From IMG/VR virus record IMGVR_UViG_3300045988_110999: 64,000 nt of DNA; one strand, 5' to 3'. Below the pieces are notes generated by a model that searched no databases, was not told the origin of the DNA, and saw only the letters and a list, made by a program, of their open reading frames with translations. The position numbers and the translations under genes were made by a program. Shown piece after piece: positions 10,301-62,559 of the stretch (position 1 is the first letter of the stretch; each line of letters opens with the position of its first letter). Source of the stretch: a virus.

Positions 10301-12430
10301 GAAATTACCATCGGAGGTGTAATATTTAGAATGGACGCCATTCTTAGCAAAGTCGTCCTTGATAGTCTGTTCTGTTGCCTTTTGTTTCCCTTTCTTTTGG
10401 GTTTCGTAGGAACGTGTTGCGGCGGCAGAACTTGCTCTCAGGGTCTTAGAGATACCGGCGTCGTCCGGGGTAAGGCCTAATTTATTAAGCCGTGCTTTAC
10501 CAGCGTCAGAAATATCTCCACCCTTGGGTTTGTAGAAGTCGCTATGAGTCCCATTCTGTTTGATATCCTCTTGGATAGTGTTTACGGCGGTAGCTACGTT
10601 CTTCGTATGCTGTTCTTTATCAGCTTTACGGTTCGCTACTTCCTGTACGTGGATTTCCTTGCGCTGTGCCGGGAAGAAACCGGTGTTCGGAGAGATGCTA
10701 TTGGCATTATCTAATTCCTGTTGGGAAATAGGAAGGCCCAGTTCATTTTTCTTTTGGATGAGAGCTTGAGCCGTAGCCTGACGGTAACGGTCGTTATTTC
10801 GTTGTTGGAGGATAGCGGCTACTGGCTGTGCGCTCTTATTGTCGGAGATGATAGGGATATTCGGCGATTCTATCATAGCTTTAACGAGGTCATCCCGTTC
10901 CGGGCCCGTCATCATTGCTGTCCCATGTACTGGATTATAGCCAAGGACGCTCGCTTCCCCACTATCAATCAGGTTAGCAATCGCCTGATTAGCTGAATAC
11001 TGGTCGTCGCTCTTCCCGTAAGCTTCCTGTTCAGCTAAATCATACTCCGTTGGGTTATTCATCTTGTCCATGAGCTGTTGCGTGAATTCTTTAGGGCCTG
11101 TTGGTACAGAAGGTTCACTGACTGGTTGAGTAGCTGGGGCTTCCTGAGAGTTCATGGGGATGGCATCTAAATCCTGCTGAGTAAGTTCAGTTTCGTCAAC
11201 GGGGATATTTTCTGTAACCGGAGCTTCGTCTTGAATAGACTCTTCGACATTATGGGTATCATCCTGTGCGTGAACGGCATCATCAATCGGACTGGGAACA
11301 ACCTTTTCTTCACCAGTAGTGTCTACCCGTCTTGCTCTACGATGGCCGATACCACCAAGGAGGCCCATCGGAATCATGCCCATACCAGCCATAAACATCT
11401 GGTCCTTGGATTCATCACCCATTTCAATAGGATTGTAGTTGATATCTTCCCCGGTAAGAGCATTATTCTGGAATTCATTCTGTAAGCCTTCTGTATAGGA
11501 TTCCATAGCCATACCCGGGACACTATGAGTAAGGAGTCGAGTAGAATATCTCTTGTCCGCAAAGTCTGCTACCTTGCCCCCAAAGTCAGACAGGGAGCCG
11601 AGAAGTCCTTTCCCAGCTTCCTGTTCGGTTGATTCTGTCGCTCTACTAAGGAGTCTCTTAGGAGCGTTTGCGGCTCCTTTCAACATGCTCATAGATACGG
11701 CATTAGATGCTACCGACAATCCAATATTATCCATGAAGTCAGTATCCATAGCATTACGAGCTTCTTCTTGTGTAGCCCCGTTCTGAATAGCCTGATTATA
11801 TGTATCGCCTGCTTCTGATGCGGCATCTAAATAACCACCAGCGATGTCACCTGCGATTTTTGGAGCGGCACTGAAAGCTGTTCTAGCAATCCTTGCCCCC
11901 GTACCCAATTCTCCAACATCAGACCCTACGGCAATAGCCTTCTCTAAGGTGGAAGCTGTCTTTGCCAATCTTGCGGCTCTGGCCGCTTTTAAACCAGCTC
12001 CTACTACCGCACCACCAATACCGCCGGTAGCGGCGCCGACGAGAGCAGTGGCGGCCATGTCAGGGGCGGAAGAACCAACAAGATTGAAGGCGGTGTAAGC
12101 AAGGCCGTTTGGGTCTGTGATGAAATCAAAGAGACTATCGTTGCGGGTGAACTGCCGTCTTGCCTGTCTACCTTGGGCAAGAGCATCCCCAAAATCCTCG
12201 AGACCTTGTCCGAACCCGAATTCCTGATTCATATAAGTACCGATAGAACCGAGACTTGACCCCAAACCATTCATAGCGCCGTTAATGGCACTATCTAAGA
12301 ATCCACCATCACCGAATGAATCATAAGTCCCTCCATCATCCGGGGCAATGACACTATCGAGGTATTGGTCATTTGCGGCGGCTCTATCGTATAAGGCCTG
12401 AAGGTAATCTTCTGTAGTTCTTCCTGCCAT
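4391..12430 (-). CDS. Giant (2679 aa) virion-associated/ejection-type multidomain protein with an internal HExxH motif
   Basis: A single uninterrupted ORF. It has a Gly/Ala-rich hydrophobic N-terminus, a very long K/E-rich low-complexity middle, LHETIHSLH (HExxH, codons 8093-8107, aa 1442-1446), and a C-terminal part with hydrophobic segments. It lies next to the peptidoglycan hydrolase genes in the structural block. Confidence 0.75.
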   Translation of the reverse strand: MAGRTTEDYLQALYDRAAANDQYLDSVIAPDDGGTYDSFGDGGFLDSAINGAMNGLGSSLGSIGTYMNQEFGFGQGLEDFGDALAQGRQARRQFTRNDSLFDFITDPNGLAYTAFNLVGSSAPDMAATALVGAATGGIGGAVVGAGLKAARAARLAKTASTLEKAIAVGSDVGELGTGARIARTAFSAAPKIAGDIAGGYLDAASEAGDTYNQAIQNGATQEEARNAMDTDFMDNIGLSVASNAVSMSMLKGAANAPKRLLSRATESTEQEAGKGLLGSLSDFGGKVADFADKRYSTRLLTHSVPGMAMESYTEGLQNEFQNNALTGEDINYNPIEMGDESKDQMFMAGMGMIPMGLLGGIGHRRARRVDTTGEEKVVPSPIDDAVHAQDDTHNVEESIQDEAPVTENIPVDETELTQQDLDAIPMNSQEAPATQPVSEPSVPTGPKEFTQQLMDKMNNPTEYDLAEQEAYGKSDDQYSANQAIANLIDSGEASVLGYNPVHGTAMMTGPERDDLVKAMIESPNIPIISDNKSAQPVAAILQQRNNDRYRQATAQALIQKKNELGLPISQQELDNANSISPNTGFFPAQRKEIHVQEVANRKADKEQHTKNVATAVNTIQEDIKQNGTHSDFYKPKGGDISDAGKARLNKLGLTPDDAGISKTLRASSAAATRSYETQKKGKQKATEQTIKDDFAKNGVHSKYYTSDGNFDSLPNDVKQVITKSAGGEVPPKIRNQIKALSGKALTENRDKTQAIVSKKNHMDTVQHINSSSKNRGVTLDAKKMEGLSVKEQSHQIEMANAKIAKRDKIAEVDAVRGFEKQRVDKSHEITIQSPFARKLSQYANKGRDKEAVTELHNFVENFFNYKKGLGMNRLLSKFPKKYRESVKEAVTSYVNARTQDKYDPLDHIQNIEQKIAEVDRQAKQVSDEKNRERAKRSYENKKEAQRTILKPVEGSSQDLLDIMSKAQGGESESKPKEKPVKELSPATKAKKTRTTINEAKSKGTKEEIKAVHSAGKALAKEIRGKHLANNDPIHYFLHHEELEKKYGERAATLSKDKYKGMYVQRGNVKEHLVPDIISWVNDGPTKVANSVNFPGGKALQNLVKSGKYTQEEVSKAKAEYEKYKKQADTENAKTKAEATESKDRETVNNQGKYIVNTKEERIATPNQLSYKYKDEMVTSSVSDMDVKIPKGEIETFGGDKVKLKDADKQDIADYLADYYNIDTEPDNIKVTKENEVHVTGASRSFFPDDTSQDIFNRLSKEDQEQFLADGHTVKGEDGNVQTDEATSDARGGNRPEHLEGDVVQRNSYPPKRNDAGRSRQKNQEKGQKISGQVHEAGGGLGPEYRLTKLGNKLKKAIHLATPEGVNIDGPTLNKLINDSFEDLPPRLQSKIAEALDDMATVFVYDGQKEKTGALGRTYSEYNVIRIFQDALSGDKNTPTILHETIHSLHAAIERGLGDKEYGMNYITSNNFVDKENDTLKDFEVKYINKLIKQLRDGDGFTNSWKMLVYDHAIINPEFIDYVCDKISRSKTLQNSLRKDRELYDELFVAKTLSQLKLSLESPQYKSQRKGVEGRIINMANKAIDGAGTLSSARASILEKAKVLKPFSNGTFTDKAVKAFLNFIENRNTPSSDALSLKNRIDKQLHKVGIPTHEETAQRAALYAAGVLPGKERMSILQRQFEDPLHIFKKYFPDGMPIYRLADGARRKMEKFVGDYSQKFLDVFKGLDKDERKVFDSLVLKANEMHRDPMQVINLDDGIHLAVRHDAFIEHYDSAPEALKKMQEIRNSGKYRLSKMIQESEENENAGFGKGFTVFALPKGSAAFKSEAAAQKYAKVHEKEAYVSMIRSLSDKPMKSSQVDNVMNSFMKYRDMMDKVYETSVQAAKESGANYKLPKKLNGYFPQIHLPYVVWIKDKDTKTFVRTASFYNASEASKKVKELNRAGQEAYWAEINPINAMAHGDRLAKVDRMTEDQLKQLNDEGLISVSESNNDTGNYNETLKRVFNSLFKEHHTVAVKDVMAHIEKVNRYKSNTGSAAHDNYVKKLQSQIRVTGLYKKLQKMKKDATISQDELNNIINSANMKQQFNPFFQKRSGASGYSQNVADSVYRYLITSGNFISKAKFYAEATAYYTSKYHKDIREEATTNEQKFLKTYIEANHRPTSVTALDRMINDYMNLLAEKDPTGIGSLLRRRYGHNLYTGLAKDTLSLQNLLKLGLFRPASLAVQAFQVLNANAKLGGNKFVGMSKYFRTGLKEATGSKNDAKWKELYDYIGINERSVAIDSEILGRPTGVFDKKILFGKSAKDFTDKSMWFFNVGDKWARKATAIGGYLKAMDDFKALTHDEKKMMLNEAITSWQTKKERARQNHYPFKAPKPTTESVRKEFVFNKTKDLVTETNFNYSVTDSPLAMTEAGVTGKLLLQFKKYPLFTLNFILHNTKEENIRFLVPMFIMAGALGMPCANLVDDIFDKTTGHSPVMALKKGMINWAGGSSAKKALVNVALYGAPSLAGINLSGNIGLGDAIQFDLGPTVSTVSNIAQGNGIIRSLAPRLGALEEAVTGKKENKYGQITAKYTPYDQLLKVFGFRTMAETNSSDATRVMKLATQKYNECKSQAKKEYIKNPNTDNYEALKIYGMSDRDIAKLLKTKDTTAMENSVKTVPKKAKSPAAQEVRDLSKTAQEFVK

Positions 12431-26758: not shown

Positions 26759-26824
26759 GTACTTACCTCCTTTGGAAGTGTTTTAAAAACACTTTACAAA
26801 GCTAAAGCATTTATAATGCTTTCC

Positions 26825-33391: not shown

Positions 33392-33455
33392 TCTATCACC
33401 TCCTTCGGAAACGACTTTAGTCGTTTCACGATGCTAAAGCAAGTCTTACTTTCCA

Positions 33456-33731
33456 TTAGAGCTGTCGATTTATGATGGTATCGGGTTTAAAAGCCGACCC
33501 GATGATTTCTCCGTTATCCAAAAGGATAAGGGAACGCTTTGCCCGGCCTCTGGTTGCGTCAAAAAACATACCAGCATCCCGGCGTCTCTTATATAATCGT
33601 TCTACCATATTCCCGATAAACGGCATGATACAGGTGACTCGGGCCGTATTCACTACGAAACCGAAGCCGATATCCATGAACACACCGTTTTCAGGGTTGA
33701 TTTTCACTCTTTCTGTTGTTGCTGACTTCAT
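33456..33731 (-). CDS. RemA/DUF370-like small DNA-binding protein
   Basis: MDIGFGFVVNTARVTCIMPFIGNMVERLYKRRRDAGMFFDATRGRAKRSLILLDNGEIIGSAFKPDTIINRQL aligns with the RemA pattern (INIGFGN.V...R...I.....P.KR......G.LIDAT.GR..R.......H..LSA..P.T...R). Confidence 0.65.
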   Translation of the reverse strand: MKSATTERVKINPENGVFMDIGFGFVVNTARVTCIMPFIGNMVERLYKRRRDAGMFFDATRGRAKRSLILLDNGEIIGSAFKPDTIINRQL

Positions 33732-33739
33732 ATATACCC

Positions 33740-33880
33740 CTAACTATAAAATTTAGGAGCTTCGCCCTCTTCGGTATCATTCTCATAAGTGGCGATACCC
33801 ATAAGGACGAACAACTCCTGTAATTCTGAAACTTGTTCTTCAAGGAGTTCTATACGCTTTTCTAACTCTTCTTTGCTCAT
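33740..33880 (-). CDS. Small (46 aa) acidic coiled-coil protein
   Basis: ATG at 33880 with SD AAGGAGGG. The translation is MSKEELEKRIELLEEQVSELQELFVLMGIATYENDTEEGEAPKFYS. It falls below the ORF-track cut-off. Confidence 0.5.
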   Translation of the reverse strand: MSKEELEKRIELLEEQVSELQELFVLMGIATYENDTEEGEAPKFYS

Positions 33881-33899
33881 ATACCCTCCTTATAGATTA

Positions 33900-33974
33900 T
33901 GGCGGCGGTACTTAGAATCGAACTAAGACTAGCAGAGTCAAAGTCTGCTGTACTGACCGTTATACGATACCGCT
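33900..33974 (-). tRNA. tRNA-Gln (anticodon UUG), CCA encoded
   Basis: Hand-folded cloverleaf. Anticodon stem GCAGA/TCTGC, loop CTTTGAC. T-arm CTTAG-TTCGATT-CTAAG. Acceptor AGCGGTA/TACCGCC with an A1xC72 mismatch. Confidence 0.75.
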
Positions 33975-33977
33975 ATG

Positions 33978-34051
33978 TGGCATGGGTACAAGGACTCGAA
34001 CCAAGATTGACGGTTTTGGAGACCGTAGTCTTTCCATTAGACGATACCCAC
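33978..34051 (-). tRNA. tRNA-Trp (anticodon CCA), CCA encoded; T-stem has two U-U mismatches
   Basis: Acceptor GTGGGTA/TACCCAT. Anticodon stem ACGGT/ACCGT, loop CTCCAAA. T-arm CTTGG-TTCGAGT-CCTTG is imperfect. Confidence 0.6.
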
Positions 34052-34052
34052 A

Positions 34053-34140
34053 TGGCAGAGGAGGTGGGATTTGAACCCACGGTGCTGCTACGCACAGCTG
34101 TTTTCAGGACAGCCACCTTAATCCACTCGGACACTCCTCT
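34053..34140 (-). tRNA. tRNA-Ser (anticodon UGA), long variable arm, CCA encoded
   Basis: Acceptor AGAGGAG/CTCCTCT. Anticodon stem GCTGT/ACAGC, loop CCTGAAA. T-arm GTGGG-TTCAAAT-CCCAC. 88 nt, type II. Confidence 0.75.
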
Positions 34141-34144
34141 AATC

Positions 34145-34218
34145 TGGTTGCGGGGGATAGAGTCGAACTATCGTAACTGGGGAATGAGCCCAGCGTCCTA
34201 CCTTTAGACGACCCCGCC
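34145..34218 (-). tRNA. tRNA-Met (anticodon CAU) with initiator-like features
   Basis: Acceptor GGCGGGG...CCCCGCAACCA with a 1x72 mismatch. GGG/CCC closes the anticodon stem, loop CTCATTC. T-arm GATAG-TTCGACT-CTATC. Confidence 0.7.
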
Positions 34219-34896
34219 ATGCATCGGTTCTTTTCTCTCTTCGTGGAGCATCTCACTTCAAGAACCGGAAAGCGGTCGCCCTCGCAAGGGCGTGTACATC
34301 AAAAACCAGCGTCGATATCCACACCGTAGGACGATGCACGTGGTCCTTCCTAATATCCTACAAAACTAAGCCAGGCACAGTCGAAGCTATCTAGAATCGT
34401 CTCCGCTGTGTACCCGGTATCCAAACATCGGATACTCGGAAACGCTTTTTTCAAAGCGTTTAGCAAAGCTAAAGCATTTAGAGTGCTCTCCATATGTTTC
34501 AATTCCTACTCACTAACCGGGAATTAGGCATATTCTTTTGGGAGCCTGCCTAGGCTACCGACCAACACCCAGAGCGTGTTGAAGTCTTTTCACGCGCCGT
34601 TACGAAACCCTCTATACATAGGGAACTTCACGGTATGGTTTTTCCGGTGATTTCTGACCGGGCCAGCATCAAAATAGTCTTTCCAGTATTAACAGGCCGA
34701 CACTGTACCTGCCCCGGAGTTTAACGTCCTCCTGAGCGACGAGATATGGATGTTTAACGTCCTCCCGGACATCACCCCCTTTAGGTCATTTATGGCAACC
34801 TTTCTTTTTCAGAGGGCCTCACCTCCATCCTGAAACGTTTCAAAGAAACGTTTTGCGGTGCTGAAACACTTCGTGTTTCCCACTCGGAGTTATTTT
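34219..34896 (-). ncRNA. Candidate large structured ncRNA between the terL stop and the tRNA array (family unassigned; strand inferred)
   Basis: 678 nt with no plausible ORF but many perfect hairpins: 34225-34267, 34277-34292, 34440-34461 (9 bp), 34644-34661 and 34863-34879. Loops are A-rich when read on the minus strand. It is co-oriented with, and contiguous to, the tRNAs. Confidence 0.5.
34719..34765. repeat. Two copies of GTTTAACGTCCTCC spaced 33 nt apart inside the structured segment
   Basis: Exact 14-mers at 34719-34732 and 34752-34765. Confidence 0.8.
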
Positions 34897-37353
34897 TTAC
34901 ATAGAACCGGCCAACGGGATTTCGTCTGTGACGACCTTCTCGTAAGAAGCGACCGGAGCAAAATAAATCTGGTCCTGATAGGCAAGTGCGTCAATCAGGT
35001 CATCATGCAAGGACTTCGGGAAAGCAAGGAATTCGCTTTCCAATTCCCCAAGAAAGGACGCTCCCATCGGGAACCATACGGTGCCAGCTTTGAACCGGGG
35101 CTGTACGGCTTTGATACGCTCTTCTTTCTTTTCCTTGGCTTCCAAATCCTTGACCGTGAACCAGATATTCCTCTTTGGCATTTCCTTTTCTATGAAGTGG
35201 GATAACGCCGCTTGGTAAGCGACCTTTTCCATACCCACATAGACAGGATGGTATCGAGTGACCGCCTCGAAGATAGCGTCTATCGTCTGGGTCGGATCGA
35301 ACCTCCCATACTTTATATCCAATACGAACCAATGGTTTTCACTATTGACCCCCACAGTGCAGACTACGGTATAGTCCGCGGTTTCTTTCTGGGAAATAGC
35401 TAGGTCTACCGTAGTGAAGATGTTCATATCCTTCACATCAAGCTCTTCTTGCTTGTAGTATTTGAAGTATTCTTTCTTGAACAGCTGGGTTTCCGGGGAA
35501 ATAGCAATACACATCTTTTCCCGTTCCCATACATCCAGATTCCCGATTCGTCTAAAAGCTTCCCTTTCCGCTTTTATCTCTTCGGAGCTCCATCTTTCGG
35601 GCCATACACTGTTTCCTTCTGCGTCTAGGATAGGGATACGGACACCGGTAAACTTCAAATCTTTCTGGTTCTCTATGACTCGTTCTATCAGGCATTTTTC
35701 ACCCAGATTGTTCCCGATCATGAAGATTCTCGTCTTCTTCCCTAAGAACAATACGTCGGACAGGAACCATTCCCAGTCCCCTTCCTGTACGGTATCTGAC
35801 TTCGCATCTTCCAAGTCTTGTGGGTCGTCAATCAGGACAATAGACGGTCGGGCATCGTGAACGTTCAAACCACGGATAGCAGCCCCTTTGCCGTAAGCTT
35901 CAAAACGGACCCACATCTCTTCGTCATCTTTATCTTTTACGATGACCTCGAAACCGTTCTGGGACTGTTCTACGATACGTACCAGGTTCATGGATAGTAG
36001 CTCATTATTGAGCCATTCATCCTCAATTTCCTTTAACCGCTTACTGGCAGCTCTCTGCGTAGCCATGATAAAGACTACGTACTGCCTATCCTTGGAAGGA
36101 TATGTCAGGCAGTGCATCGGGAAGGCTCTTAGTACGACGCCGCTATTATGGGTAACGATGCAGCCAGTACCACATAAAAACAGCCCCGTAGGGCTGTCTA
36201 CCTTGATACACATGGTGGGGACGGACTCACATTTAGAGACTTTCTTGACACTCCTCATCAGAGTGCGTTTATCCTGAGTATCACAAATCAAATCCCTCTT
36301 CCTTTTTAACTGAGGGAATTTAACTGTGGTCTTGAACGACACATCATAATGTGGCTTACATTCTTTGCCGTAGAGCTTAGATGGTTTCTTTATAATAGTA
36401 GCCTTAATACCTAAGCTTCTGACTAAATATAAAGTCCCCATAGCCAATCTTTCATTGGTGTTTGTGAAAGTAACCGTCCCAGCCTTGCTACCAGCCTTGG
36501 CAATCGTACCGTCACTATCAATGAGACCGGCCAATAATTGCCACCTGTTTTCCTCGCTGTCGTAGTAATACTCTTCCGGGATGTGCTTGTCGTATATCAA
36601 CCCAAGGGATTTAAGCTCTTTCAAGAACCCTCCTTGGAACTTTATCGTCATTGCCGTTTTATCTTTGCGGCATGTCTTGGTTCCCCAGTCGATGTTCAGG
36701 AATGTCTCTTCAAAATCTTCCCCACCGCAAGTGATTTCGGCTGCTTTTGAATGACCATCTCCAAGCCATAACCCCAAATCATACGGAGAAATGATATGTT
36801 CTTTCCGAGGGTATTGTAAGGGCATAGCTAATGGTATACGGTATGCCTTTTCTTGATATCCTTTTTTAGGTTTTCCCAAATCCTGCTTTGCGTACATCTC
36901 CAGTGTGGTTACGATATTCCATCTACGTTTGTGCTTGTCCCATACGCTCCACAGATGTTCTGCATCAGCAGTGATTTCCTCCCCGTCGTCAAATTCGACT
37001 TTGAAGCAAGGATGATCGTAAAAAATCTCGGAGGTGCTACCAACTAACACTGGGTTCCCATTCTCATCAAATACGTAGTCCCCCGGCTTGATTTCCCCCA
37101 TCAGCTTATATCCACTAGGGGTCGGGATAGGGGTGAAAATCGAGATTGCTTTTCCTGACTCACGAAAGCCCTCTACAGCGTAGTGGTGCTTGCCTTTTAA
37201 CAGTATCTTTCCCCATTCCTCTTGGAATGAAGGGGTCTTTACTTCATCTTCGACGGGGAGGAATACTCTTCTGAATAACATAAGGTCATCTTTGGCGTCA
37301 CGGAACAGCTTCGCCATCATTACTTTCTTGTCCATATCTCTCTCCCCTTTCAT
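34897..37353 (-). CDS. terL: Terminase large subunit, interrupted by an intein
   Basis: Extein motifs are Walker A GFRESGK|S (split by the intein), Walker B SIVLIDDPQD, and nuclease-domain TTVDLAISQKETADYT and DDLIDALAY. Without the 335-aa insert the protein is 483 aa. Confidence 0.85.
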   Translation of the reverse strand: MKGERDMDKKVMMAKLFRDAKDDLMLFRRVFLPVEDEVKTPSFQEEWGKILLKGKHHYAVEGFRESGKAISIFTPIPTPSGYKLMGEIKPGDYVFDENGNPVLVGSTSEIFYDHPCFKVEFDDGEEITADAEHLWSVWDKHKRRWNIVTTLEMYAKQDLGKPKKGYQEKAYRIPLAMPLQYPRKEHIISPYDLGLWLGDGHSKAAEITCGGEDFEETFLNIDWGTKTCRKDKTAMTIKFQGGFLKELKSLGLIYDKHIPEEYYYDSEENRWQLLAGLIDSDGTIAKAGSKAGTVTFTNTNERLAMGTLYLVRSLGIKATIIKKPSKLYGKECKPHYDVSFKTTVKFPQLKRKRDLICDTQDKRTLMRSVKKVSKCESVPTMCIKVDSPTGLFLCGTGCIVTHNSGVVLRAFPMHCLTYPSKDRQYVVFIMATQRAASKRLKEIEDEWLNNELLSMNLVRIVEQSQNGFEVIVKDKDDEEMWVRFEAYGKGAAIRGLNVHDARPSIVLIDDPQDLEDAKSDTVQEGDWEWFLSDVLFLGKKTRIFMIGNNLGEKCLIERVIENQKDLKFTGVRIPILDAEGNSVWPERWSSEEIKAEREAFRRIGNLDVWEREKMCIAISPETQLFKKEYFKYYKQEELDVKDMNIFTTVDLAISQKETADYTVVCTVGVNSENHWFVLDIKYGRFDPTQTIDAIFEAVTRYHPVYVGMEKVAYQAALSHFIEKEMPKRNIWFTVKDLEAKEKKEERIKAVQPRFKAGTVWFPMGASFLGELESEFLAFPKSLHDDLIDALAYQDQIYFAPVASYEKVVTDEIPLAGSM
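36145..37149 (-). mobile_element. Class-3-type intein with a LAGLIDADG homing endonuclease, inserted in the terL P-loop
   Basis: aa 69-403. It starts with Ala directly after GK. Block B is ADAEHLW (Trp at B12). LAGLIDADG motifs are LGLWLGDGHS and LLAGLIDSDGTI. Block F is VPTMCIKV (Cys at F4). Block G is CIVTHN followed by Ser+1 (Thr at G5). Confidence 0.8.
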
Positions 37354-37474
37354 CCTATTCGGTTTCGTTTCTTCATTTGCTTTTCTACCTTTGTCAAATT
37401 GTCAAAATACCTCTTGATTTTTCAAAATTTTTTTCGTTTTCCTATTTTACGGTTATAGTACCCCCTTTTATTTT

Positions 37475-37503
37475 TTATTAATACTCACTTATATGAATAA
37501 ATC
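37475..37503 (+). promoter_or_regulatory. Plus-oriented member of the ATACTCACTT promoter family (weak hexamers)
   Basis: TTATTA-atactcacttatatgaa(17)-TAAATC. It has the same spacer motif and geometry as the strong promoters at 62583-62611 and 57457-57485. Confidence 0.4.
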
Positions 37504-37509
37504 TATCAT

Positions 37510-38340
37510 ACAAAGCCGTATTTGAACCATTAAAAGCGAATAAAACTAACAAAAAGGTCAAAAAAATGACGTACAAGAGAGGGGTAACTTCCCTAATTTC
37601 CGCCCGGCCAGCCAAGTACCCGAAAAAGCGAAGCCCCACCCTCTAGATCTATGTACACTGCACGAGAACCATTAGAATCCGTGGGAAAGGCCAGACGATG
37701 CCGATAAATGGCTCAACCATGCGGTTTTAAGGCCATCCAACGGCTATGCTATGATACAGTTGTCCCAAGGGAAAGGGCCAAGGGGAAAGCTCATAAGTGA
37801 GTCGATTACTCGGGTTCTAACCTTAGACCCCTAGCACGGGTCGCGGGACATCAGAACTTTGACAACTGCATATAGTAGGGCCGTGCGGCACGGCCGCCCC
37901 CTATAGTCCTCATTAGAAGGACGATAAGGAAGTCGATTGAGGGGACGACGACAGTGCCGCACGGTAGCACGAGGCAAGGGCCTATTGGCAAGGCCCGATA
38001 TGCCCGATAAAAACGGGCCAGCCTTAATTGCTCTGCCTAGGAACACCTCGAAAATGATATTGAGAGGTGGGCATGTGGCGACGTCGATGTACAGGCGGAC
38101 GTGAAGAGCGTCCACGTAATGCCGGTGTGAAGACGAGAAGCGGCCTAAAGCCCTACCCTAGCCGGTAGGTGCTTCACAAGGTGGTTAGAGCGGTTAAAAT
38201 CCTCCGCACCCATATGGGGAAAGAGGCAATACGTGCGTACCTGCTATGGGACGAAAATCCCATGACGTGAATCCTTGAATCGGCTGAAACAATGCCGATT
38301 CCTATAACGTCGAAAAGGGGCTTTCAGGCCCCTATACAAG
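37510..38340 (+). ncRNA. Candidate large structured ncRNA or very long structured leader (family unassigned; strand inferred)
   Basis: About 830 nt, visibly more GC-rich than its flanks, with no credible ORF. It has dense perfect hairpins: 37879-37895, 37978-37996, 38002-38018, 38097-38113, 38152-38169, 38246-38263, 38277-38301 and 38316-38333. Loops are A-rich on the plus strand, and there is an 11-nt long-range complement (37881-37891 vs 37954-37964). Confidence 0.5.
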
Positions 38341-38392
38341 GGAAGGAAGTTAGTTTTTACCCTCTAAAGGGGATTGCATGGAGGTATGCTGC

Positions 38393-38662
38393 ATGTACAA
38401 ATTGGTTAAAAAGTTCAAGAGTATTAGTGGAGAAATCCACATCAAAGAAAAGACTTATGAAGTTAATCGCAAGACCATTCTAAAAGTCGTCCGACAGGCG
38501 GCTAAAAAATACCGCCGTGATGAGGGCTGGGAAAATCTCCTGGCCGTTCCTAGGAAACAAGGGCGTGCTAAGGTATCGGGCCATTGTGAAATGAACCGCA
38601 CCTATATTGCTCGTCAATGCGCCGGTATCGGGCGCATTGATATCTATGTAGTAGAGTTATAA
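38393..38662 (+). CDS. Hypothetical early protein
   Basis: ATG at 38393, 8 nt after GGAGG. 89 aa, basic. Confidence 0.55.
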   Translation: MYKLVKKFKSISGEIHIKEKTYEVNRKTILKVVRQAAKKYRRDEGWENLLAVPRKQGRAKVSGHCEMNRTYIARQCAGIGRIDIYVVEL

Positions 38663-38734
38663 TTTATTCAACTTCCTTCCTTTATATAAGGGCCTGAATA
38701 TCCCTATAGGGGGATTGAAGACTAGAATGTTCAA

Positions 38735-38750
38735 CATTTCCCCGCTCACG
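38735..38750 (+). promoter_or_regulatory. Conserved leader element CATTTCCCCGCTCACG (copy 1)
   Basis: Repeated at 39112-39128. Both copies are followed about 30 nt later by AGAAAGAAGGTATAT(T/C)ATG. Confidence 0.35.
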
Positions 38751-38780
38751 GTTTTGATTTTCAAAGAAAGAAGGTATATT

Positions 38781-39053
38781 ATGCTTACGTCAAAGAACAA
38801 CTATAAAATTCCCGGTGTTATGATCCAAGGTCTTATCTTGCGTCAAATGCGCATGGCGGCCCTTGATACTCGTGAATGGTATAAAGCCATGAATAACGGA
38901 GACGAAAACGGGGATTATACATACTGTAAGTTAAAGAACTATGAACAAGCTGAAATATGGCCTTTGTTAGAGGTTCAAGGTATTGAAAGAGACTCTAAAG
39001 AGTTTGATATGGTTATGGAATATATCGTCGACATGATTGAATACATGGACTAA
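38781..39053 (+). CDS. Hypothetical early protein
   Basis: ATG at 38781 after GAAGG. 90 aa. Confidence 0.55.
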   Translation: MLTSKNNYKIPGVMIQGLILRQMRMAALDTREWYKAMNNGDENGDYTYCKLKNYEQAEIWPLLEVQGIERDSKEFDMVMEYIVDMIEYMD

Positions 39054-39111
39054 GTGTTTGTTTTGTCCTACTCCATGACATTAAACTGGAGTCCATAATT
39101 GGAACGTGTAG

Positions 39112-39128
39112 CATTTCCCCCGCTCACG
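39112..39128 (+). promoter_or_regulatory. Conserved leader element CATTTCCCCCGCTCACG (copy 2)
   Basis: See 38735-38750. Here it is embedded in the inverted repeat GAACGTG...CACGTTC. Confidence 0.35.
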
Positions 39129-39166
39129 TTCTTTTATTTTGGGGAATTTTAGAAAGAAGGTATATC

Positions 39167-39487
39167 ATGGCTAAAGTCGGACAAGAAATTAATGTCAGCA
39201 CGGTACAGACTATCAACCGTTCTAAGGGGACGTTCTCCGCTATGTCGGGGATTACTGTACATGATGAGGGCGGCTTCCATAACTTTTATTTAGGGGTCTA
39301 TGGTTCGTTGAAAAACGGGTACGTAAACCTTAACGATTGTGGTACTATGTACTGCCTAAATCGTTCTAGGGGACATATTATGGCCTTATTAGACCTGTTG
39401 GGACACACATCCTATAGGGTTATTAAGAGTGAGAAGGAAGTTAATGAGTTTATCGACTTTCTCGTAAACTTCCGGCATGACTTCTAA
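39167..39487 (+). CDS. Hypothetical early protein
   Basis: 106-aa ORF with the same SD context as the previous gene. Confidence 0.6.
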   Translation: MAKVGQEINVSTVQTINRSKGTFSAMSGITVHDEGGFHNFYLGVYGSLKNGYVNLNDCGTMYCLNRSRGHIMALLDLLGHTSYRVIKSEKEVNEFIDFLVNFRHDF

Positions 39488-39587
39488 ATGTTTGTGGTTT
39501 GGTCACGGCCACGTAAAAAGTAGCGCGACTGCCAGCGGAAACGTCAAAGACGTTTAGCGATGTATAAGAACTTTGTTCTTCACATAT

Positions 39588-39616
39588 GACCTAACTTATC
39601 TGTTAGGTCTTTTTTT
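39588..39616 (+). terminator. Intrinsic terminator
   Basis: GACCTAAC-ttatctg-TTAGGTC followed by TTTTTTT. Confidence 0.7.
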
Positions 39617-39640
39617 AGTGCAAGAAAAGAGGTGTATACC

Positions 39641-39907
39641 ATGCGTAAAGAAAGGTATATCATTGACGGGATTACCTATACCCGTGTTACAAAAGCGACC
39701 GCAAGGAAGCTTTTCGACGATGGGGAATGTGTTGGCATTTGCCCCGTCAAGATTGACCCGTCTTCTATTTGGGGCGGCATGGCTGAATTTCAGAAAGGCC
39801 ATAAATGCGAAAATTGGTCTTTCGACGATTTTGTAAACTGCTTCATTTATTACAACTGTCAGCTAAACGAAACTGGCAAGTATCCGAAATTCTTTAGAAA
39901 GGGGTGA
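39641..39907 (+). CDS. Hypothetical protein
   Basis: ATG at 39641 after AAGAGG. 88 aa. Confidence 0.55.
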   Translation: MRKERYIIDGITYTRVTKATARKLFDDGECVGICPVKIDPSSIWGGMAEFQKGHKCENWSFDDFVNCFIYYNCQLNETGKYPKFFRKG

Positions 39908-39911
39908 TTGT

Positions 39912-40028
39912 ATGCCTTACAAAGACTGGGAAGAGGATAAAAAGTTTCTCAAGGAAGCGTTACCTGTTATCCTCGCTATTCCTCTCATCTATATTATTCT
40001 CGTAATTCTGTTTTCATTCGCTGATTAG
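39912..40028 (+). CDS. Small (38 aa) single-TM protein
   Basis: ATG at 39912 after AGGGGTGA. The translation is MPYKDWEEDKKFLKEALPVILAIPLIYIILVILFSFAD. It falls below the ORF-track cut-off. Confidence 0.45.
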   Translation: MPYKDWEEDKKFLKEALPVILAIPLIYIILVILFSFAD

Positions 40029-40041
40029 GTGGTGATCCAGG

Positions 40042-40269
40042 ATGAGGATATTGTTTAAAAAGGCAAATACGCTCTATTGGCGTAAATGCCTCAGACTTAC
40101 AAGAGAATTAAGAGTCCATGGTTTGGTTGCCGAAAACAAAGGCAACCATTTTTTAGTGCGGAGAATTAACGGCGGCCATGAAGTAAAATTCTTGACTGCC
40201 GAAAAACTTTACAGATATCTTCTGAGCCGTTCTAAGAATTTCGATGAACTGACTTATCATTTAATGTAA
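40042..40269 (+). CDS. Hypothetical basic protein
   Basis: 75-aa ORF with SD GGTGGTGA. Confidence 0.5.
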   Translation: MRILFKKANTLYWRKCLRLTRELRVHGLVAENKGNHFLVRRINGGHEVKFLTAEKLYRYLLSRSKNFDELTYHLM

Positions 40270-40289
40270 TTTGAAAGGGGTTCTGCTTT

Positions 40290-41597
40290 ATGGGTAAACG
40301 TATTATTTGCATCGACAGTAAGGACAATAAGGTATGTTTCTATGATAAGAACGACAATCTTTTTGTTCTGGATATTGGCAACGAAATGCTTATGGGAAAG
40401 ACTTTCCCCTGCCCTCATTGTGGGAAAGAACACGAGGTAAAGGATTTTGTACAGATCGGGGATGAGCTACTATGCTCTGATTGCTATGACCCTAGCTTCT
40501 ATGATAAATGCTCAGAATGTGGGGAATACTTTAAGAAGGATGAGCTGTTTGACATAGACGGTAAACGGCTCTGCAAGTCCTGTTTCAACAATAATTATTT
40601 TACCTGTGATAATTGCGGAGCGGTTTATCCAAAATCAGAAGCCGTCTATGTTGGATATGACAGATTTTGCCAGGATTGTGTCGACCAGCTTCTAGACGAA
40701 GGAGAACTCATCCAGTGCGTCTGCTGTGATGAAATCTTGCGGGCTGAGGATGCTTATGAGCTGGATGGAAATTTCTACTGCTCGTCCTGCTATGACCAGG
40801 AACGTGAAGAAGAATATGGAGACTCCATCGTAGGATACCACTGTAACCGTCCATTCCGGTTCAAGAGTTTGGCCAGCGATGTAGATTACCCGAAAAAAGG
40901 TAATCTTTACCTAGGTTTAGAACATGAACTGTCTAACGCCGGGGAAGATAACTACAAGCTGGCAAAAGAGCTTGTAGATGATTATGACCGTGTTTGCGAA
41001 CACGACTCGTCAATCAGTGATGGGTTTGAAGTCATCTCAGACGCATTGACATTTGATTATTGGAGAAAGAAGGAAGATTTGCAGGCTTATATGAATACCA
41101 TTAACAGATTGTCGGATTTCGATCCGGACGACTCTAGCGGTATCCATGTCCATATTTCTAGAGGCCCTCTCTCCGACAATGCTGTCATTGAAATGGCGTG
41201 GTTCGTCATGCAACATTACGACGACTGCATTAAATTTGGTCGTCGCGACCCCGACGAATGTGAGTATTGTGAACGGGTCACGAGAGGCGACAAGGAAGAC
41301 TTATGGGATTATGCTACGGGTCATGGTGTAGCCGTCAACCTCGAACATGAATCGAACCTCGAATTGCGGTTCTTTAAGACGACCGACGATGTCGACCACA
41401 TGTGGGCCATCTTAGAATTTAGCTACGCATTGGCTATGGTAGCGAAAGGGGGTGTCATTGATATTGAATGGGCGGATATCCGTAAATTCTGTGAAGAAGA
41501 TGGGAAAGAAGAACATTTCCTCGCCGAATTGAACGAAGGATTCGATTGCGAAGAGAATGAGGATTATGAATATAACCTCACCGAATACTTTGCTTGA
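40290..41597 (+). CDS. Repeated CxxC zinc-ribbon N-terminal region fused to an amidoligase-like (COOH-NH2 ligase) C-terminal domain
   Basis: Six or more CxxC...CxxC units (CPHCGKEH..CSDCYD..CSECGEYF..CKSCFN..CDNCGAVY..CQDCVD..CVCCDE..CSSCYD) are followed by LYLGLEHELSN...CEHDSSISDGFEVISD...SGIHVHISR...LELRFFK. I recognise the latter as the putative amidoligase fold pattern. Confidence 0.55.
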   Translation: MGKRIICIDSKDNKVCFYDKNDNLFVLDIGNEMLMGKTFPCPHCGKEHEVKDFVQIGDELLCSDCYDPSFYDKCSECGEYFKKDELFDIDGKRLCKSCFNNNYFTCDNCGAVYPKSEAVYVGYDRFCQDCVDQLLDEGELIQCVCCDEILRAEDAYELDGNFYCSSCYDQEREEEYGDSIVGYHCNRPFRFKSLASDVDYPKKGNLYLGLEHELSNAGEDNYKLAKELVDDYDRVCEHDSSISDGFEVISDALTFDYWRKKEDLQAYMNTINRLSDFDPDDSSGIHVHISRGPLSDNAVIEMAWFVMQHYDDCIKFGRRDPDECEYCERVTRGDKEDLWDYATGHGVAVNLEHESNLELRFFKTTDDVDHMWAILEFSYALAMVAKGGVIDIEWADIRKFCEEDGKEEHFLAELNEGFDCEENEDYEYNLTEYFA

Positions 41598-62203: not shown

Positions 62204-62386
62204 TCAGTGGGACTTATAGTCGAAGTGGTGAGCTTTCGAGATTTTACCCTCCCATTTGTCGCCCCAGCCTTCGGCTTCTTCAATCAACTCGTCTAAGAGC
62301 TGATATGCCTCTTTCCGGGTGTCCACGGTATAGTGTTCCGGGAAAGTCTTTCCCGACATTCTGAACTCCACAATGTATTGGTCCAT
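62204..62386 (-). CDS. Hypothetical protein
   Basis: 60-aa ORF coupled (TAATG) to the upstream HTH gene. Confidence 0.5.
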   Translation of the reverse strand: MDQYIVEFRMSGKTFPEHYTVDTRKEAYQLLDELIEEAEGWGDKWEGKISKAHHFDYKSH

Positions 62387-62559
62387 TATATTTCCCTCCC
62401 TGAGATGAATTCTTCAACGTCTTCCTTCCTGAACCGAAGGACCCTTTGGGAGATTCTAATACACGGAAGTTCCTTCTTGTCCACCAGCCGCCTTACCTGC
62501 TGGTCTGAAATATTGAGGTACTCAGCGACCTCTTTCGTCTTGAGAAGTATGGGGCTCAC
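62386..62559 (-). CDS. Excisionase-type (MerR-like) HTH protein
   Basis: GTG at 62559. MSPILLKTKEVAEYLNISDQQVRRLVDKKELPCIRISQRVLRFRKEDVEEFISGREI matches the excisionase-family HTH pattern. 57 aa, below the ORF-track cut-off. Confidence 0.65.
   Translation of the reverse strand: MSPILLKTKEVAEYLNISDQQVRRLVDKKELPCIRISQRVLRFRKEDVEEFISGREI

What the first reader, a model, noticed from the sequence alone, without database searches (positions are those of the whole stretch)
34219..34896. ORF-free, hairpin-dense 678-nt segment fused to the 5' side of a tRNA array: candidate giant 'ornate' ncRNA
No plausible ORF occupies the 678 nt between the terL stop (34897) and the tRNA-Met 5' end (34218). The segment is packed with perfect stems at 34225-34267, 34277-34292, 34440-34461 (9 bp), 34644-34661 and 34863-34879. 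It also has two palindromic AAACGTTT boxes (34833, 34846) and an exact 14-mer repeated 33 nt apart. Loops are mostly A-rich on the minus strand, the same strand as terL and the tRNAs. Established knowledge: the very large bacterial ncRNAs GOLLD and ROOL are typically found in prophages next to tRNA genes. This locus has that context, but I cannot recognise either consensus by eye. It may be a divergent member or an undescribed class. Its 3' end could be set by RNase P cleavage of the adjacent tRNA.
Basis: partly seen in the sequence, partly recalled or inferred. Interest (0 to 1): 0.85.

Follow-up and report, generated by a model that had tools for sequence, protein, structure and literature searches.

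The report
Modular structured RNA beside phage tRNAs
The 678 bases between a phage's DNA-packaging gene and its tRNA genes code for no protein and instead hold several conserved folded-RNA modules of unknown function, which match no described RNA family but are a variable, reshuffled chain of modules rather than one giant RNA with a fixed shape.

Summary
The segment 34219-34896 has no conserved ORF, and it is the most hairpin-dense stretch of the window: 7 perfect hairpins against 0.9 expected.

No Rfam family (GOLLD, ROOL, HEARO, OLE, raiA, CRISPR repeats and others) matches, even at E<=10. In relatives whose TerL is 79-96% identical, the same spacer ranges from 82 to 944 nt, and its parts are present, absent or reordered.

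Synonymous sites in terL are saturated, yet two core modules stay 84-92% identical:
- D2 (34714-34783) is an extended GNRA hairpin that sequesters a Shine-Dalgarno-like AAAGGGGGUGAU, followed by a second hairpin with a conserved loop.
- D8 (34219-34356) has six helices and abuts tRNA-Met.

Both show compensatory base-pair changes, and their G.U pairs fit only the terL/tRNA sense strand. Accessory modules D4 and D5 also covary. D0 and D6 resemble intercistronic hairpins found elsewhere in this genome; D6-type cassettes sit at different points in relatives.

Best reading: this is an undescribed multi-module structured RNA, co-transcribed with terL and the tRNAs and cut by RNase P at tRNA-Met. 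It probably acts in RNA processing or stability, or is released as a stable RNA like T4 RNAC/RNAD. Its function was not tested.

The parts
34831..34896 (-). D0. Two triloop hairpins directly after the terL stop: GAAACAC-GAA-GUGUUUC at 34863-34879 and AAACGUUUC-UUU-GAAACGUUU at 34833-34853. Neither has a U-tract.
   Evidence: D0 is present only in the WIN, L082, L084, L085 and L086 lineages. It looks like the same kind of hairpin as the intercistronic ones at 33408-33427 and 26776-26822.
34784..34830 (-). D1. A Shine-Dalgarno-like hairpin, GGAGG-UGAGGC-CCUCU (34811-34826), plus a linker.
   Evidence: Shared with L042, L073, L081, L082, L084 and L088. The structure was read by eye. L042 keeps the pairing through a C-to-U change that gives a G.U pair.
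34714..34783 (-). D2, the first core module. It has three parts. (1) An extended hairpin, GGGUG / AUGUCC-GGGA-GGACGU / UAAA / CAUCC (34748-34777), which sequesters the SD-like AAAGGGGGUGAU. (2) An invariant single strand, AUAUCUCGUCG. (3) Hairpin H5 (34714-34734), with a variable stem and a conserved loop GACGUUAAA.
   Evidence: Alignment A4. In the apical stem, U.G and U-A change to G-C and G-C in L001/L004. The H5 stem reads GGAG/CUCC here, CGGG/CCCG in L073 and GGC/GCC in L088. Model R2 finds D2 in 11 lineages. About 45 nt are nearly invariant although synonymous sites are saturated.
34644..34713 (-). D3. An accessory module with a CAGG..CCUG hairpin and the CCGGU-CAGAAAUC-ACCGG hairpin (34644-34661). 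It also holds the first copy of the GRAAAGACU motif.
   Evidence: Partly shared with L042 and L004. Support for the structure comes only from reading the sequences.
34594..34643 (-). D4. An accessory module made of a nested two-helix hairpin: outer ACCGU/ACGG, inner CCCU/AGGG.
   Evidence: Shared with L042 and L001. Of 10 predicted pairs, 4 have changes on both sides, for example CCCU/AGGG to CCAC/GUGG. Some cells are broken.
34493..34593 (-). D5. An accessory module with three hairpins: CAACAC-GCUCUGG-GUGUUG (34563-34581), AGCCU-AGGC-AGGCU, and AAUUCC..GGAAUU enclosed by AUAUG/CAUAU.
   Evidence: Shared with L001 and L004, and partly with L081. Of 16 pairs, 4 are compensatory in only 3 sequences, for example CAACAC/GUGUUG to CAGUGC/GCACUG. 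The change from AUAUG/CAUAU to UGUG/CACA in L081 was read.
34437..34492 (-). D6. A three-hairpin cassette that includes UUUAGC-UUU-GCUAAA (34459-34473) and AAACGCUUU-GAAAA-AAGCGUUU (34440-34461).
   Evidence: A closely similar element lies at window 26776-26822, just upstream of a gene's SD, with a shared 17-mer. Cassette copies sit at different points inside D2 in L081/L085 and in L082/L084/L086, and are multiple and nested in L086. Each copy folds as hairpins, z -2.2 to -4.0.
34354..34436 (-). D7. An accessory module with a GUAUCC-GAUGUUU-GGAUAC hairpin (34417-34435) and a long imperfect hairpin, CACAGCGGAG..CUUCGACUGUG.
   Evidence: Shared only with L081, at 96% identity, and placed there after D8 rather than before it. 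There is too little divergence to test covariation.
34219..34356 (-). D8, the second core module, with six helices:
- P1: 34345-34350 with 34267-34272.
- P2: 34332-34339 with 34294-34301.
- P3: 34321-34326 with 34307-34312.
- P4: 34287-34291 with 34278-34282 (UGCG loop).
- P5: 34260-34266 with 34226-34232.
- P6: 34246-34248 with 34235-34237.
A 7-nt tail, GAUGCAU, abuts tRNA-Met.
   Evidence: RNAalifold. Pair counts give 98.1% of cells paired and 5 pairs changed on both sides, against 0-1 in slid controls. With 9 sequences, 96.4% of cells are paired and 43 cells are G.U. The window's own MFE reproduces P1-P5. Model R1 finds D8 only in this clade.
33900..34218 (-). The tRNA array: Met(cat), Ser(tga), Trp(cca), Gln(ttg). 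Its first 5' end sets the putative RNase P cut that would end D8.
   Evidence: ARAGORN and Rfam.
34897..37353 (-). The terL gene (818 aa, containing an intein). It is the upstream gene of the same transcription unit.
   Evidence: No strong terminator lies between it and the portal gene.
26776..26822 (-). A second copy in this genome of the D6-type double-hairpin cassette, sitting directly upstream of a late gene's SD.

Best explanation
The segment is a non-coding, multi-module structured RNA on the minus strand. It lies inside the leftward late transcription unit, which runs terL, segment, tRNAs, portal.

It has two core modules:
- D2 is about 70 nt. It is an extended GNRA-capped hairpin that hides a perfect Shine-Dalgarno-like sequence, plus a second hairpin with a conserved loop.
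- D8 is about 138 nt. It is a three-way junction plus an arm, ending 7 nt before tRNA-Met.

In this phage the core is expanded to about 610 nt by accessory folded modules (D3-D5, D7) and by copies of a small hairpin cassette (D0, D6). Similar cassettes occur between other late genes.

Proposed mechanism, which is inferred and not shown:
- RNase P cleavage at tRNA-Met cuts the polycistronic RNA.
- That leaves D8 and the upstream hairpins as a structured 3' end.
- This end either shields the terL-containing RNA from 3' exonucleases, or is released as a stable small RNA, as RNAC and RNAD are from the T4 tRNA cluster.
- The sequestered SD-like motif of D2 may act as a ribosome-binding 5' stabiliser or as a regulated site.

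What is shown: no coding capacity, selection, covariation, strand, and modular presence, absence and reordering.
What is inferred: co-transcription, RNase P end formation, and a role in stability or processing.
For: Non-coding:
- Every sense-strand ORF has stops in homologs.
- D2 is invariant at all three codon positions.

Selection:
- Identity at 4-fold synonymous sites in terL is 0.29-0.38 against L001, L004 and L073, and 0.62 against L042.
- D2 and D8 are nevertheless 84-92% identical.

Structure:
- D8 has 35 pairs with 98.1% of cells paired. Five pairs are changed on both sides, against 0-1 in slid controls, and 0 of 500 shuffles reach the observed values. It holds up with 9 sequences.
- D2.
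- D5 has 4 of 16 pairs compensatory. D4.

Strand:
- 29 of 210 cells in D8 (43 of 304 with 9 sequences) are G.U. These would be C.A mismatches on the other strand.

Modularity:
-.

No known family:
-.

Co-transcription is plausible:
- The segment has no sigma-70-like promoter.
- It has only one weak terminator-like site (P3).
- The next strong minus-strand terminators are at 27720-27697 and 18177-18147.

Precedents:
- Small RNAs of unknown role are made from the T4 tRNA region (PMC3014915).
- Ribosomes bound at a strong SD block RNase J1 (PMC5737220).
Against: - No expression data exist, so transcript ends, processing and stability are all untested.
- Only about 11 lineages, all from one narrow phage clade, carry the modules. 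Covariation therefore rests on few independent events, and shuffle controls can be exceeded by relatedness alone.
- A simple exonuclease block would not need about 45 invariant nucleotides in D2. The real function may therefore be a specific interaction that I have not identified.
- Relatives with short spacers manage without any of these modules and instead carry a consensus sigma-70 promoter after terL. The modules are therefore dispensable or replaceable.
- Some helices show uncompensated mismatches: the P1 A-to-C change in the L081 type, and the P5 U-to-C change in L042.
Confidence: 0.55

Rival explanations
1. It is one large non-coding RNA of a new class. D2 and D8 form a cooperating core, and variable peripheral domains are inserted between them. 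This would be functionally analogous to GOLLD, which has a conserved 3' domain and a variable 5' domain and is covalently linked to tRNAs.
For: - D8 never occurs without D2, in 9 of 9 lineages.
- The variable modules all sit between D2 and D8, or inside D2's linkers.
- The conserved H5 loop GACGUUAAA is complementary to D8's UUUUUGAYGU. The single-sequence MFE of L085 pairs them.
- The loop deviates in both lineages that lack D8: L073 has CGUCGUUAAUU and L088 has CGACGUUAACU.
- Accessory modules D4 and D5 also covary.
- GOLLD and ROOL have the same tRNA-island and phage context (PMC12286853, PMC5737381).
Against: - D2 occurs without D8 in the L073 group and in L088.
- Module order is not fixed. 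In L081, parts of D5 and D7 follow D8.
- The closest relative, L042, lacks about 315 nt of the segment (q184-253 and q301-545).
- No long-range helix has covariation support. The H5-D8 complementarity competes with the covariation-supported P2 and P3 helices and could be chance.
- Much of the size variation comes from a repeated cassette that also occurs elsewhere in the genome.
Confidence: 0.2
2. D2 is a promoter-proximal, cis-acting transcription-control RNA for the long late operon. It could be a processive antiterminator like HK022 put or Bacillus EAR, or an attenuator. The rest of the segment is spacer.
For: - D2 is a two-hairpin element of about 70 nt with near-invariant sequence.
- It sits where relatives carry the promoter of the tRNA and late-gene unit.
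- The downstream operon is long and full of hairpins.
Against: - No promoter-like site lies upstream of D2 in the window.
- No Rfam match to the known antiterminator RNA families was found.
- This reading does not explain D8 or the other covarying modules.
Confidence: 0.1
3. It is a DNA-level element: a packaging (pac/cos) site next to terL, an origin, or a binding array for the RemA-like regulator encoded just downstream. Its direct repeats and palindromes would serve as protein-binding sites.
For: - It is single-copy and highly conserved, and it lies next to the terminase gene.
- The 14-mer direct repeat is spaced 33 bp apart, about three helical turns.
- A RemA-like gene is always close by.
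Against: - 14% of D8 pair cells are G.U, and D2 has invariant G.U pairs. These are mismatches in duplex or cruciform DNA and on the opposite strand.
- The compensatory changes preserve pairing rather than sequence.
- The GC-skew turn is at about 37.5 kb, not here.
- Close relatives lack the modules altogether.
Confidence: 0.07
4. It is non-functional debris in a recombination and mobile-element hot spot: decayed ORFs or homing-endonuclease remnants plus selfish hairpin repeats. The apparent conservation would come from recent exchange between phages.
For: - The locus is a hot spot. There is an intein in terL, a GIY-YIG gene inserted in L071, a 132-aa ORF in L001/L004, and nested cassettes in L086.
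- Some blocks are 96-99% identical between otherwise diverged phages, which indicates recent transfer.
Against: - tblastn with the GIY-YIG protein and the 132-aa ORF finds nothing in the segment.
- D8 and D2 are 84-92% identical, not near-identical, and the differences fall as compensatory pairs. That pattern needs long-term selection on structure.
Confidence: 0.05

Closest known systems
GOLLD RNA (Rfam RF01998)
   Same: Both are found in phages, next to or covalently linked with tRNA genes including tRNA-Met. Both are large and hairpin-rich. [quoted passage not shown]
   Different: The GOLLD covariance model gives no match at E<=10. The conserved core here is only about 210 nt. Module order varies. 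No multistem or pseudoknot architecture has been shown.
ROOL RNA (Rfam RF03087)
   Same: It shares the phage and prophage context near tRNA islands. It averages 581 nt and its function is unknown (PMC5737381).
   Different: The covariance model gives no match. [quoted passage not shown]
Bacteriophage T4 RNAC and RNAD (stable RNAs of the tRNA region)
   Same: These are small structured RNAs of unknown role, encoded in a phage tRNA cluster and made from the same region as the tRNAs (PMC3014915). D8 is of similar size and ends at a tRNA 5' end.
   Different: The hosts and phages are unrelated. Whether D8 is released as a stable RNA is unknown.
Intercistronic hairpin elements (T7 RNase III sites; bacterial REP/BIME-type repeats)
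   Same: The D0 and D6 hairpins have no U-tract. They recur between late genes just upstream of SD sequences (26776-26822 and 33408-33427). They appear at different insertion points in relatives, sometimes nested. The comparison itself rests on my own knowledge.
   Different: No RNase III cleavage or mobility has been shown. The elements are much shorter than BIMEs. They do not explain D2 or D8.
STAB-SD / ribosome-protected 5' stabilisers of Firmicutes
   Same: AAAGGGGGUGAU in D2 is a 12-nt match, with one G.U pair, to the anti-SD tail and is not followed by a usable start codon. A strong SD can block RNase J1 (PMC5737220).
   Different: Here the motif is predicted to be partly paired (GGGUG with CAUCC). 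The host and its RNases are unknown. No 5' end has been mapped.

Membership tests
GOLLD | A match to the Rfam covariance model, that is, the conserved 3' domain. | tested here: not met
   cmscan finds no hit at the gathering score or at E<=10 in 33800-35100, and none at E<=1 in 7 relatives.
GOLLD | A phage or prophage location next to tRNA genes. | tested here: met
   The segment abuts tRNA-Met in an uncultivated phage with an N4-like TerL.
ROOL | A match to the Rfam covariance model, that is, six junctions and three pseudoknots. | tested here: not met
   No hit.
HEARO / OLE / raiA | A match to the Rfam covariance models. | tested here: not met
   No hit at E<=10.
tRNA or tRNA-like pseudogene | A cloverleaf recognised by ARAGORN or by the Rfam tRNA model inside 34219-34896. 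| tested here: not met
   Only the four annotated tRNAs were found, and nothing inside the segment at E<=10.
Large 'ornate' ncRNA in general | One conserved architecture, with the same domains in the same order across homologs. | tested here: not met
   The spacer is 82-944 nt long. Modules are absent, reordered or duplicated in relatives with 79-96% identical TerL.
Large 'ornate' ncRNA in general | Covariation-supported secondary structure without coding capacity. | tested here: met
   D8, D2, D5 and D4 meet this. The ORFs are broken in homologs.
Large 'ornate' ncRNA in general | Long-range helices, multistem junctions or pseudoknots that tie the whole RNA together. | tested here: inconclusive
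   Only D8 has a supported three-way junction. The H5-loop to D8 complementarity has no covariation support.
T4 RNAC/RNAD-type stable RNA of a tRNA cluster | Encoded within or adjacent to a phage tRNA cluster on the same strand. | tested here: met
   D8 ends at the 5' end of tRNA-Met, and its structure fits the sense strand only.
T4 RNAC/RNAD-type stable RNA of a tRNA cluster | Released from the precursor and accumulating as a stable RNA. | not testable with these tools
   No expression data are available.
Intrinsic terminator | A G+C-rich hairpin directly followed by a U-run. | tested here: not met
   The only such site is the weak P3 (6 pairs, 2 of them G.U) followed by GUUUUU, and the U-run is interrupted in L001/L004. 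The D0 and D6 hairpins have no U-run.
CRISPR repeat / RNA anti-CRISPR | A match to a CRISPR-DR family. This lead came from AUUGAAAC at the base of a D5 hairpin. | tested here: not met
   No Rfam CRISPR-DR hit at E<=10. The host's own repeats are unknown.

The most novel reading that the evidence does not exclude
D2 and D8, together with their optional inserts, form a previously undescribed class of large tRNA-linked phage RNA. It would act as a single folded particle, functionally parallel to GOLLD and ROOL but unrelated in sequence. The conserved H5 loop would dock onto D8, and the sequestered SD-like motif would engage ribosomes.
Probability: 0.2. Interest if true: 0.7.

Novelty: new variant of a known kind. 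Interest (0 to 1): 0.48.

Why it matters
Phage tRNA islands repeatedly carry structured RNAs whose function is still unknown. Examples are T4 RNAC/RNAD, GOLLD and ROOL.

This locus adds an independent and much more plastic example. In it, natural variants already separate a minimal core (D2, with or without D8) from optional domains. That amounts to a ready-made deletion series for asking what such RNAs do.

It also shows a small hairpin cassette spreading within and between intergenic regions of a phage late operon. Finally, it shows that 'hairpin-dense and next to tRNAs' is not enough to call something a giant ornate RNA.

Tried and rejected
- **Rfam.** I searched at the gathering score and at E<=10 on the window, and at E<=1 on seven relatives. 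Only tRNAs came up.
- **BLAST against deposited phages.** blastn of the segment found nothing. TerL is only 25-29% identical to N4-like phages.
- **Exact-pattern scans.** Scans of IMG/VR returned only loci already in hand plus one chance 28-nt match, L041. Scans of 185,579 genomes found nothing.
- **Pseudogene idea.** tblastn with the GIY-YIG protein of L071 and the 132-aa ORF of L001/L004 against the segment was negative.
- **Small-protein idea.** Pfam found nothing above its cut-offs for the 50-aa and 28-aa ORFs, and all the ORFs have stops in homologs. D2's reading frame is not kept. L073 has a stop at codon 7 of the listed ORF, and L081 shifts frame.
- **Helices I guessed by eye and then dropped.** UGCAUCG pairing with the 3' tail CGAUGCA gives two mismatches in the L081 type. 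GAUG pairing with CAUC around the GNRA hairpin is broken in L004.
- **N4-type hairpin promoters.** This was a lead from the triloop hairpins, for example AAAUGC-GGA-GCAUUU in L082. The 2679-aa ORF has no PHROG hit that would identify a virion RNA polymerase. The hairpins sit in late intercistronic positions before SD sequences. I did not pursue it further.
- **Alignment of the cassette copies.** MAFFT plus RNAalifold failed because of indels, so I folded the copies singly instead.
- **Sigma-70 promoter inside the segment.** None was found.
Full report
**Layout.**
On the minus strand the window reads as follows: terL (37353..34897, 818 aa, with an intein-type insert), then 678 nt, then tRNA-Met/Ser/Trp/Gln (34218..33900). 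After the tRNAs come a 46-aa ORF, a 91-aa RemA-like ORF and the portal gene. The phage is uncultivated. Its TerL is 25-29% identical to those of N4-like phages, and the window is identical to a 65,984-nt ENA metagenome scaffold. Below, q means the position on the minus strand counted from 34896, so window coordinate = 34897 - q.

**Checking the observation.**
- The boxes are the two arms of one 9-bp triloop hairpin.
- The segment has 7 perfect hairpins of >=6 bp. Dinucleotide shuffles give 0.88+-0.93 (0 of 300 reach 7), and other 678-nt stretches average 1.27. It is the densest part of the window.
- Whole-segment folding energy is only mildly unusual, with z = -2.45.
- Three sense-strand ORFs of 28-50 aa exist, and public pipelines called one of them as a 47-aa gene. 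All three carry stop codons in homologous loci and none has a Pfam match above its cut-off. The segment is therefore non-coding.

**Known families.**
Rfam 15 gives only the four tRNAs. This holds at the gathering score over the whole window, at E<=10 over 33800-35100, and at E<=1 over seven related loci. Membership in GOLLD, ROOL, HEARO, OLE, raiA, known ribozymes, CRISPR-repeat families and antiterminator families is therefore tested and not met.

**Relatives.**
- I anchored searches on the TerL C-terminus in IMG/VR, in JGI/ENA metagenomes and in the 15-billion-protein collection. These gave about 40 loci.
- Among phages with 79-96% identical TerL, the spacer from terL to the first tRNA has these lengths: 82, 111, 126, 135, about 185, 217, 360, 365, 370, 371, 374, 378, 549, 629, 678, 931 and 944 nt.
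- The shortest spacers consist of little more than a consensus sigma-70 promoter. L011 has TTGACA-17-TATAAT, and L007, L009 and L013 have TTGACT-17-TATTCT.
- Only the lineages with TerL at >=89% identity share DNA with the segment.

**Selection.**
Identity at 4-fold synonymous sites in the last 801 nt of terL is 0.62 against L042, 0.38 against L001/L004 and 0.29 against L073. For most comparisons neutral sites are therefore saturated. Against that background, parts of the segment are 84-92% identical. Those parts are under purifying selection. A few blocks are 96-99% identical and point to recent exchange: q3-151 with L082 and q461-543 with L081.

**Modules.**
Pairwise comparisons divide the segment into nine modules:
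- D0: q1-66
- D1: q67-113
- D2: q114-183
- D3: q184-253
- D4: q254-303
- D5: q304-404
- D6: q405-460
- D7: q461-543
- D8: q541-678

Module content by lineage:
- Window: D0 through D8.
- L082, L085: D0, D1, D2 (with a cassette inside) and D8.
- L084: the same, but with a shortened P5 arm.
- L042: D1, D2, part of D3, D4 and D8.
- L001, L004: a 132-aa ORF, then D2, D3 or D4, D5, about 165 unrelated nt, and D8.
- L081: D1, D2 (with a cassette), D8, part of D5, D7, and a second short P5 arm.
- L086: D0, D1, D2 with two nested cassettes, further inserts, the P4-P6 part of D8, and 55 extra nt.
- L073 group and L088: D1 and D2 only.
- L005 and L002 groups: only a remnant of D2's 5' end.

Covariance models built here find D8 in 9 lineages and D2 in 11, and neither anywhere else in the loci searched.

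**D8.**
- RNAalifold on six sequences gives the following picture. P1 closes a three-way junction that holds a long arm (P2 and P3) and a UGCG-capped hairpin (P4). An arm made of P5 and P6 follows, and then a 7-nt tail that abuts tRNA-Met.
- Pair counts show 98.1% of cells paired. Five pairs have changes on both sides: three in P2 and one each in P4 and P6. Controls with the partner slid by 1-3 columns give 0-1 such pairs, and no shuffle out of 500 reaches the observed values.
- With nine sequences, 96.4% of cells are paired.
- The short P5 arms of L084 and L081 add a U-A to C-G exchange.
- The window's own MFE reproduces P1-P5.
- 29 of 210 pair cells are G.U (43 of 304 with nine sequences). 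On the plus strand these would be mismatches, so the fold belongs to the terL/tRNA sense strand.
- Two helices show uncompensated mismatches: P1 in the L081 type and P5 in L042.

**D2.**
- About 45 nt, AAAGGGGGUGA..CCGGGAGG..UUAAACAUCCAUAUCUCGUCG, are almost invariant across lineages.
- The few changes in this stretch convert AUGUCC/GGACGU into AGGGCC/GGCCCU, so two pairs change on both sides.
- RNAalifold extends this GNRA-capped hairpin with GGGUG/CAUCC. That pairs part of the Shine-Dalgarno-like AAAGGGGGUGAU.
- In the L005 type the apical hairpin is deleted, and GGGUG/CAUUC remains as a simple hairpin (read).
- The second hairpin, H5, keeps its loop GACGUUAAA while its stem changes: GGAG/CUCC, then CGGG/CCCG, then GGC/GCC.
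- The small ORF that overlaps D2 is not conserved as a reading frame.

**Accessory modules.**
- D5 has 16 predicted pairs, and 4 are compensatory in only three sequences.
- D4 has 10 pairs, 4 with changes on both sides, and some cells are broken.
- D7 is too similar to its only homolog to test.

**Hairpin cassette.**
- D6 has a close relative elsewhere in the same genome, at 26776-26822, directly upstream of a gene's SD. The two share a 17-mer.
- A similar hairpin precedes the portal SD at 33408-33427.
- In relatives, cassette copies sit at different points inside D2. In L081 and L085 the copy follows CAGGAGG, with that heptamer duplicated. In L082, L084 and L086 it follows CCAT. L086 has several nested copies.
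- Each copy folds into hairpins with z between -2.2 and -4.0.
- D0's two triloop hairpins have a similar form.
- These elements account for much of the hairpin density and the size variation, and they are not specific to this locus.

**Transcription context.**
- The segment has no sigma-70-like promoter and only one weak terminator-like site, which is P3 followed by GUUUUU.
- The next strong minus-strand terminators are at 27720-27697 and 18177-18147.
- Co-transcription with terL, the tRNAs and the portal gene is therefore the simplest reading. It is an inference.

**Interpretation.**
- It is not a member of any known large-RNA family.
- It is not a single 678-nt architecture. It is a conserved core (D2, usually with D8) that different lineages have expanded with optional folded modules and hairpin cassettes.
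- I favour a cis-acting processing or stability role, or release of D8 as a stable RNA after RNase P cleavage. [quoted passage not shown]
- D2's sequestered SD-like motif may be a ribosome-binding stabiliser (concept: PMC5737220).
- The main rival is that D2 and D8 cooperate in one large RNA comparable in role to GOLLD, which also has a conserved 3' region, a variable 5' region and linked tRNAs (PMC12286853). Three things speak for it. D8 never occurs without D2. The H5 loop is complementary to a conserved stretch of D8. That loop deviates in the two lineages that lack D8. None of these has covariation support.
- DNA-level explanations are disfavoured by the many G.U pairs.
- The debris explanation is disfavoured by the compensatory changes.

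**Limits.**
All homologs come from one narrow clade, about 11 lineages. Several are linked by recent recombination, so the covariation counts rest on few independent events. No expression data were available, and the host is unknown. TerL relatives in MAGs labelled Synergistaceae and Fretibacterium are only a hint.

Noticed in passing
window 34897-37353 (-): TerL is 818 aa here but 459-484 aa in close relatives. The identical gene in L068 has Pfam Hom_end and LAGLIDADG_3 hits, so this terL carries an intein with a homing endonuclease.
   Followed up: partly
L071 569-1213 (Logan SRR29808819), equivalent to the window's tRNA-Met/tRNA-Ser junction near 34141-34144: A phage 99.6% identical to the window across the part of the segment its contig covers (q280-678) has a 214-aa GIY-YIG homing-endonuclease gene inserted between tRNA-Met and tRNA-Ser. 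Its tRNA-Ser anticodon is also called cga rather than tga.
   Followed up: partly
L081 5891-7434: The portal gene product is annotated as 1058 aa with a faint LAGLIDADG hit, against 717 aa in the window. This may be a second intein in a relative.
   Followed up: no
L082 1627-1875; L004 5808-6056; L001 5821-6061: A further ORF-free block of about 250 nt lies between tRNA-Met and tRNA-Ser and is 83-85% identical between diverged phages. It is absent from the window and may be another non-coding RNA module of the tRNA island.
   Followed up: no
window 37354-40290: This divergent region upstream of terL has no ORF of >=120 aa. It holds several of the window's next-densest hairpin clusters (37.7-38.1 kb), and the GC-skew minimum and strand switch lie near 37.5 kb. 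It may hold promoters, an origin or further RNAs.
   Followed up: no
window 4391-12430 (-): A 2679-aa ORF with no PHROG match at E<=1e-5. Given the distant N4-like TerL, it might be a virion RNA polymerase or another giant injected protein.
   Followed up: partly
window 33456-33731 (-): A 91-aa RemA-like protein (Pfam PF04025, E=2e-16) is encoded just downstream of the tRNAs and before the portal gene in the window and in every relative whose downstream genes were listed. This is an unusual place for a DNA-binding regulator family known from Bacillus biofilm control.
   Followed up: no
L011 4804-4850; L007, L009 and L013 spacers: Relatives with short spacers carry a near-consensus sigma-70 promoter immediately after the terL stop: TTGACA-17-TATAAT or TTGACT-17-TATTCT. 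This suggests the tRNAs and late genes have their own host-type promoter there, which the window lacks.
   Followed up: partly
L074 1201-1257 (also L005, L006, L045, L075): The spacer of this lineage encodes a 17-aa Cys/Gly/Lys-rich peptide, MYTKCGKGGRKGGKGGCK, behind a good SD. It lies just upstream of the D2 remnant.
   Followed up: no
window 62373-62482 (-); L002 1065-1131 (-): Weak covariance-model hits. The D8 model hits the window at E of about 0.02-0.05, and the D2 model hits L002 at E of about 3e-4. Both lie outside the terL-tRNA spacer and are probably chance.
   Followed up: no
window 34493-34507 and L081 4834-4850: The sequence AUUGAAAC sits at the base of a hairpin whose stem differs between the window (AAUUCC/GGAAUU) and L081 (CCCGU/ACGGG). 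From memory, this looks like the conserved 3' end of many CRISPR repeats. No Rfam CRISPR-DR model matched.
   Followed up: partly
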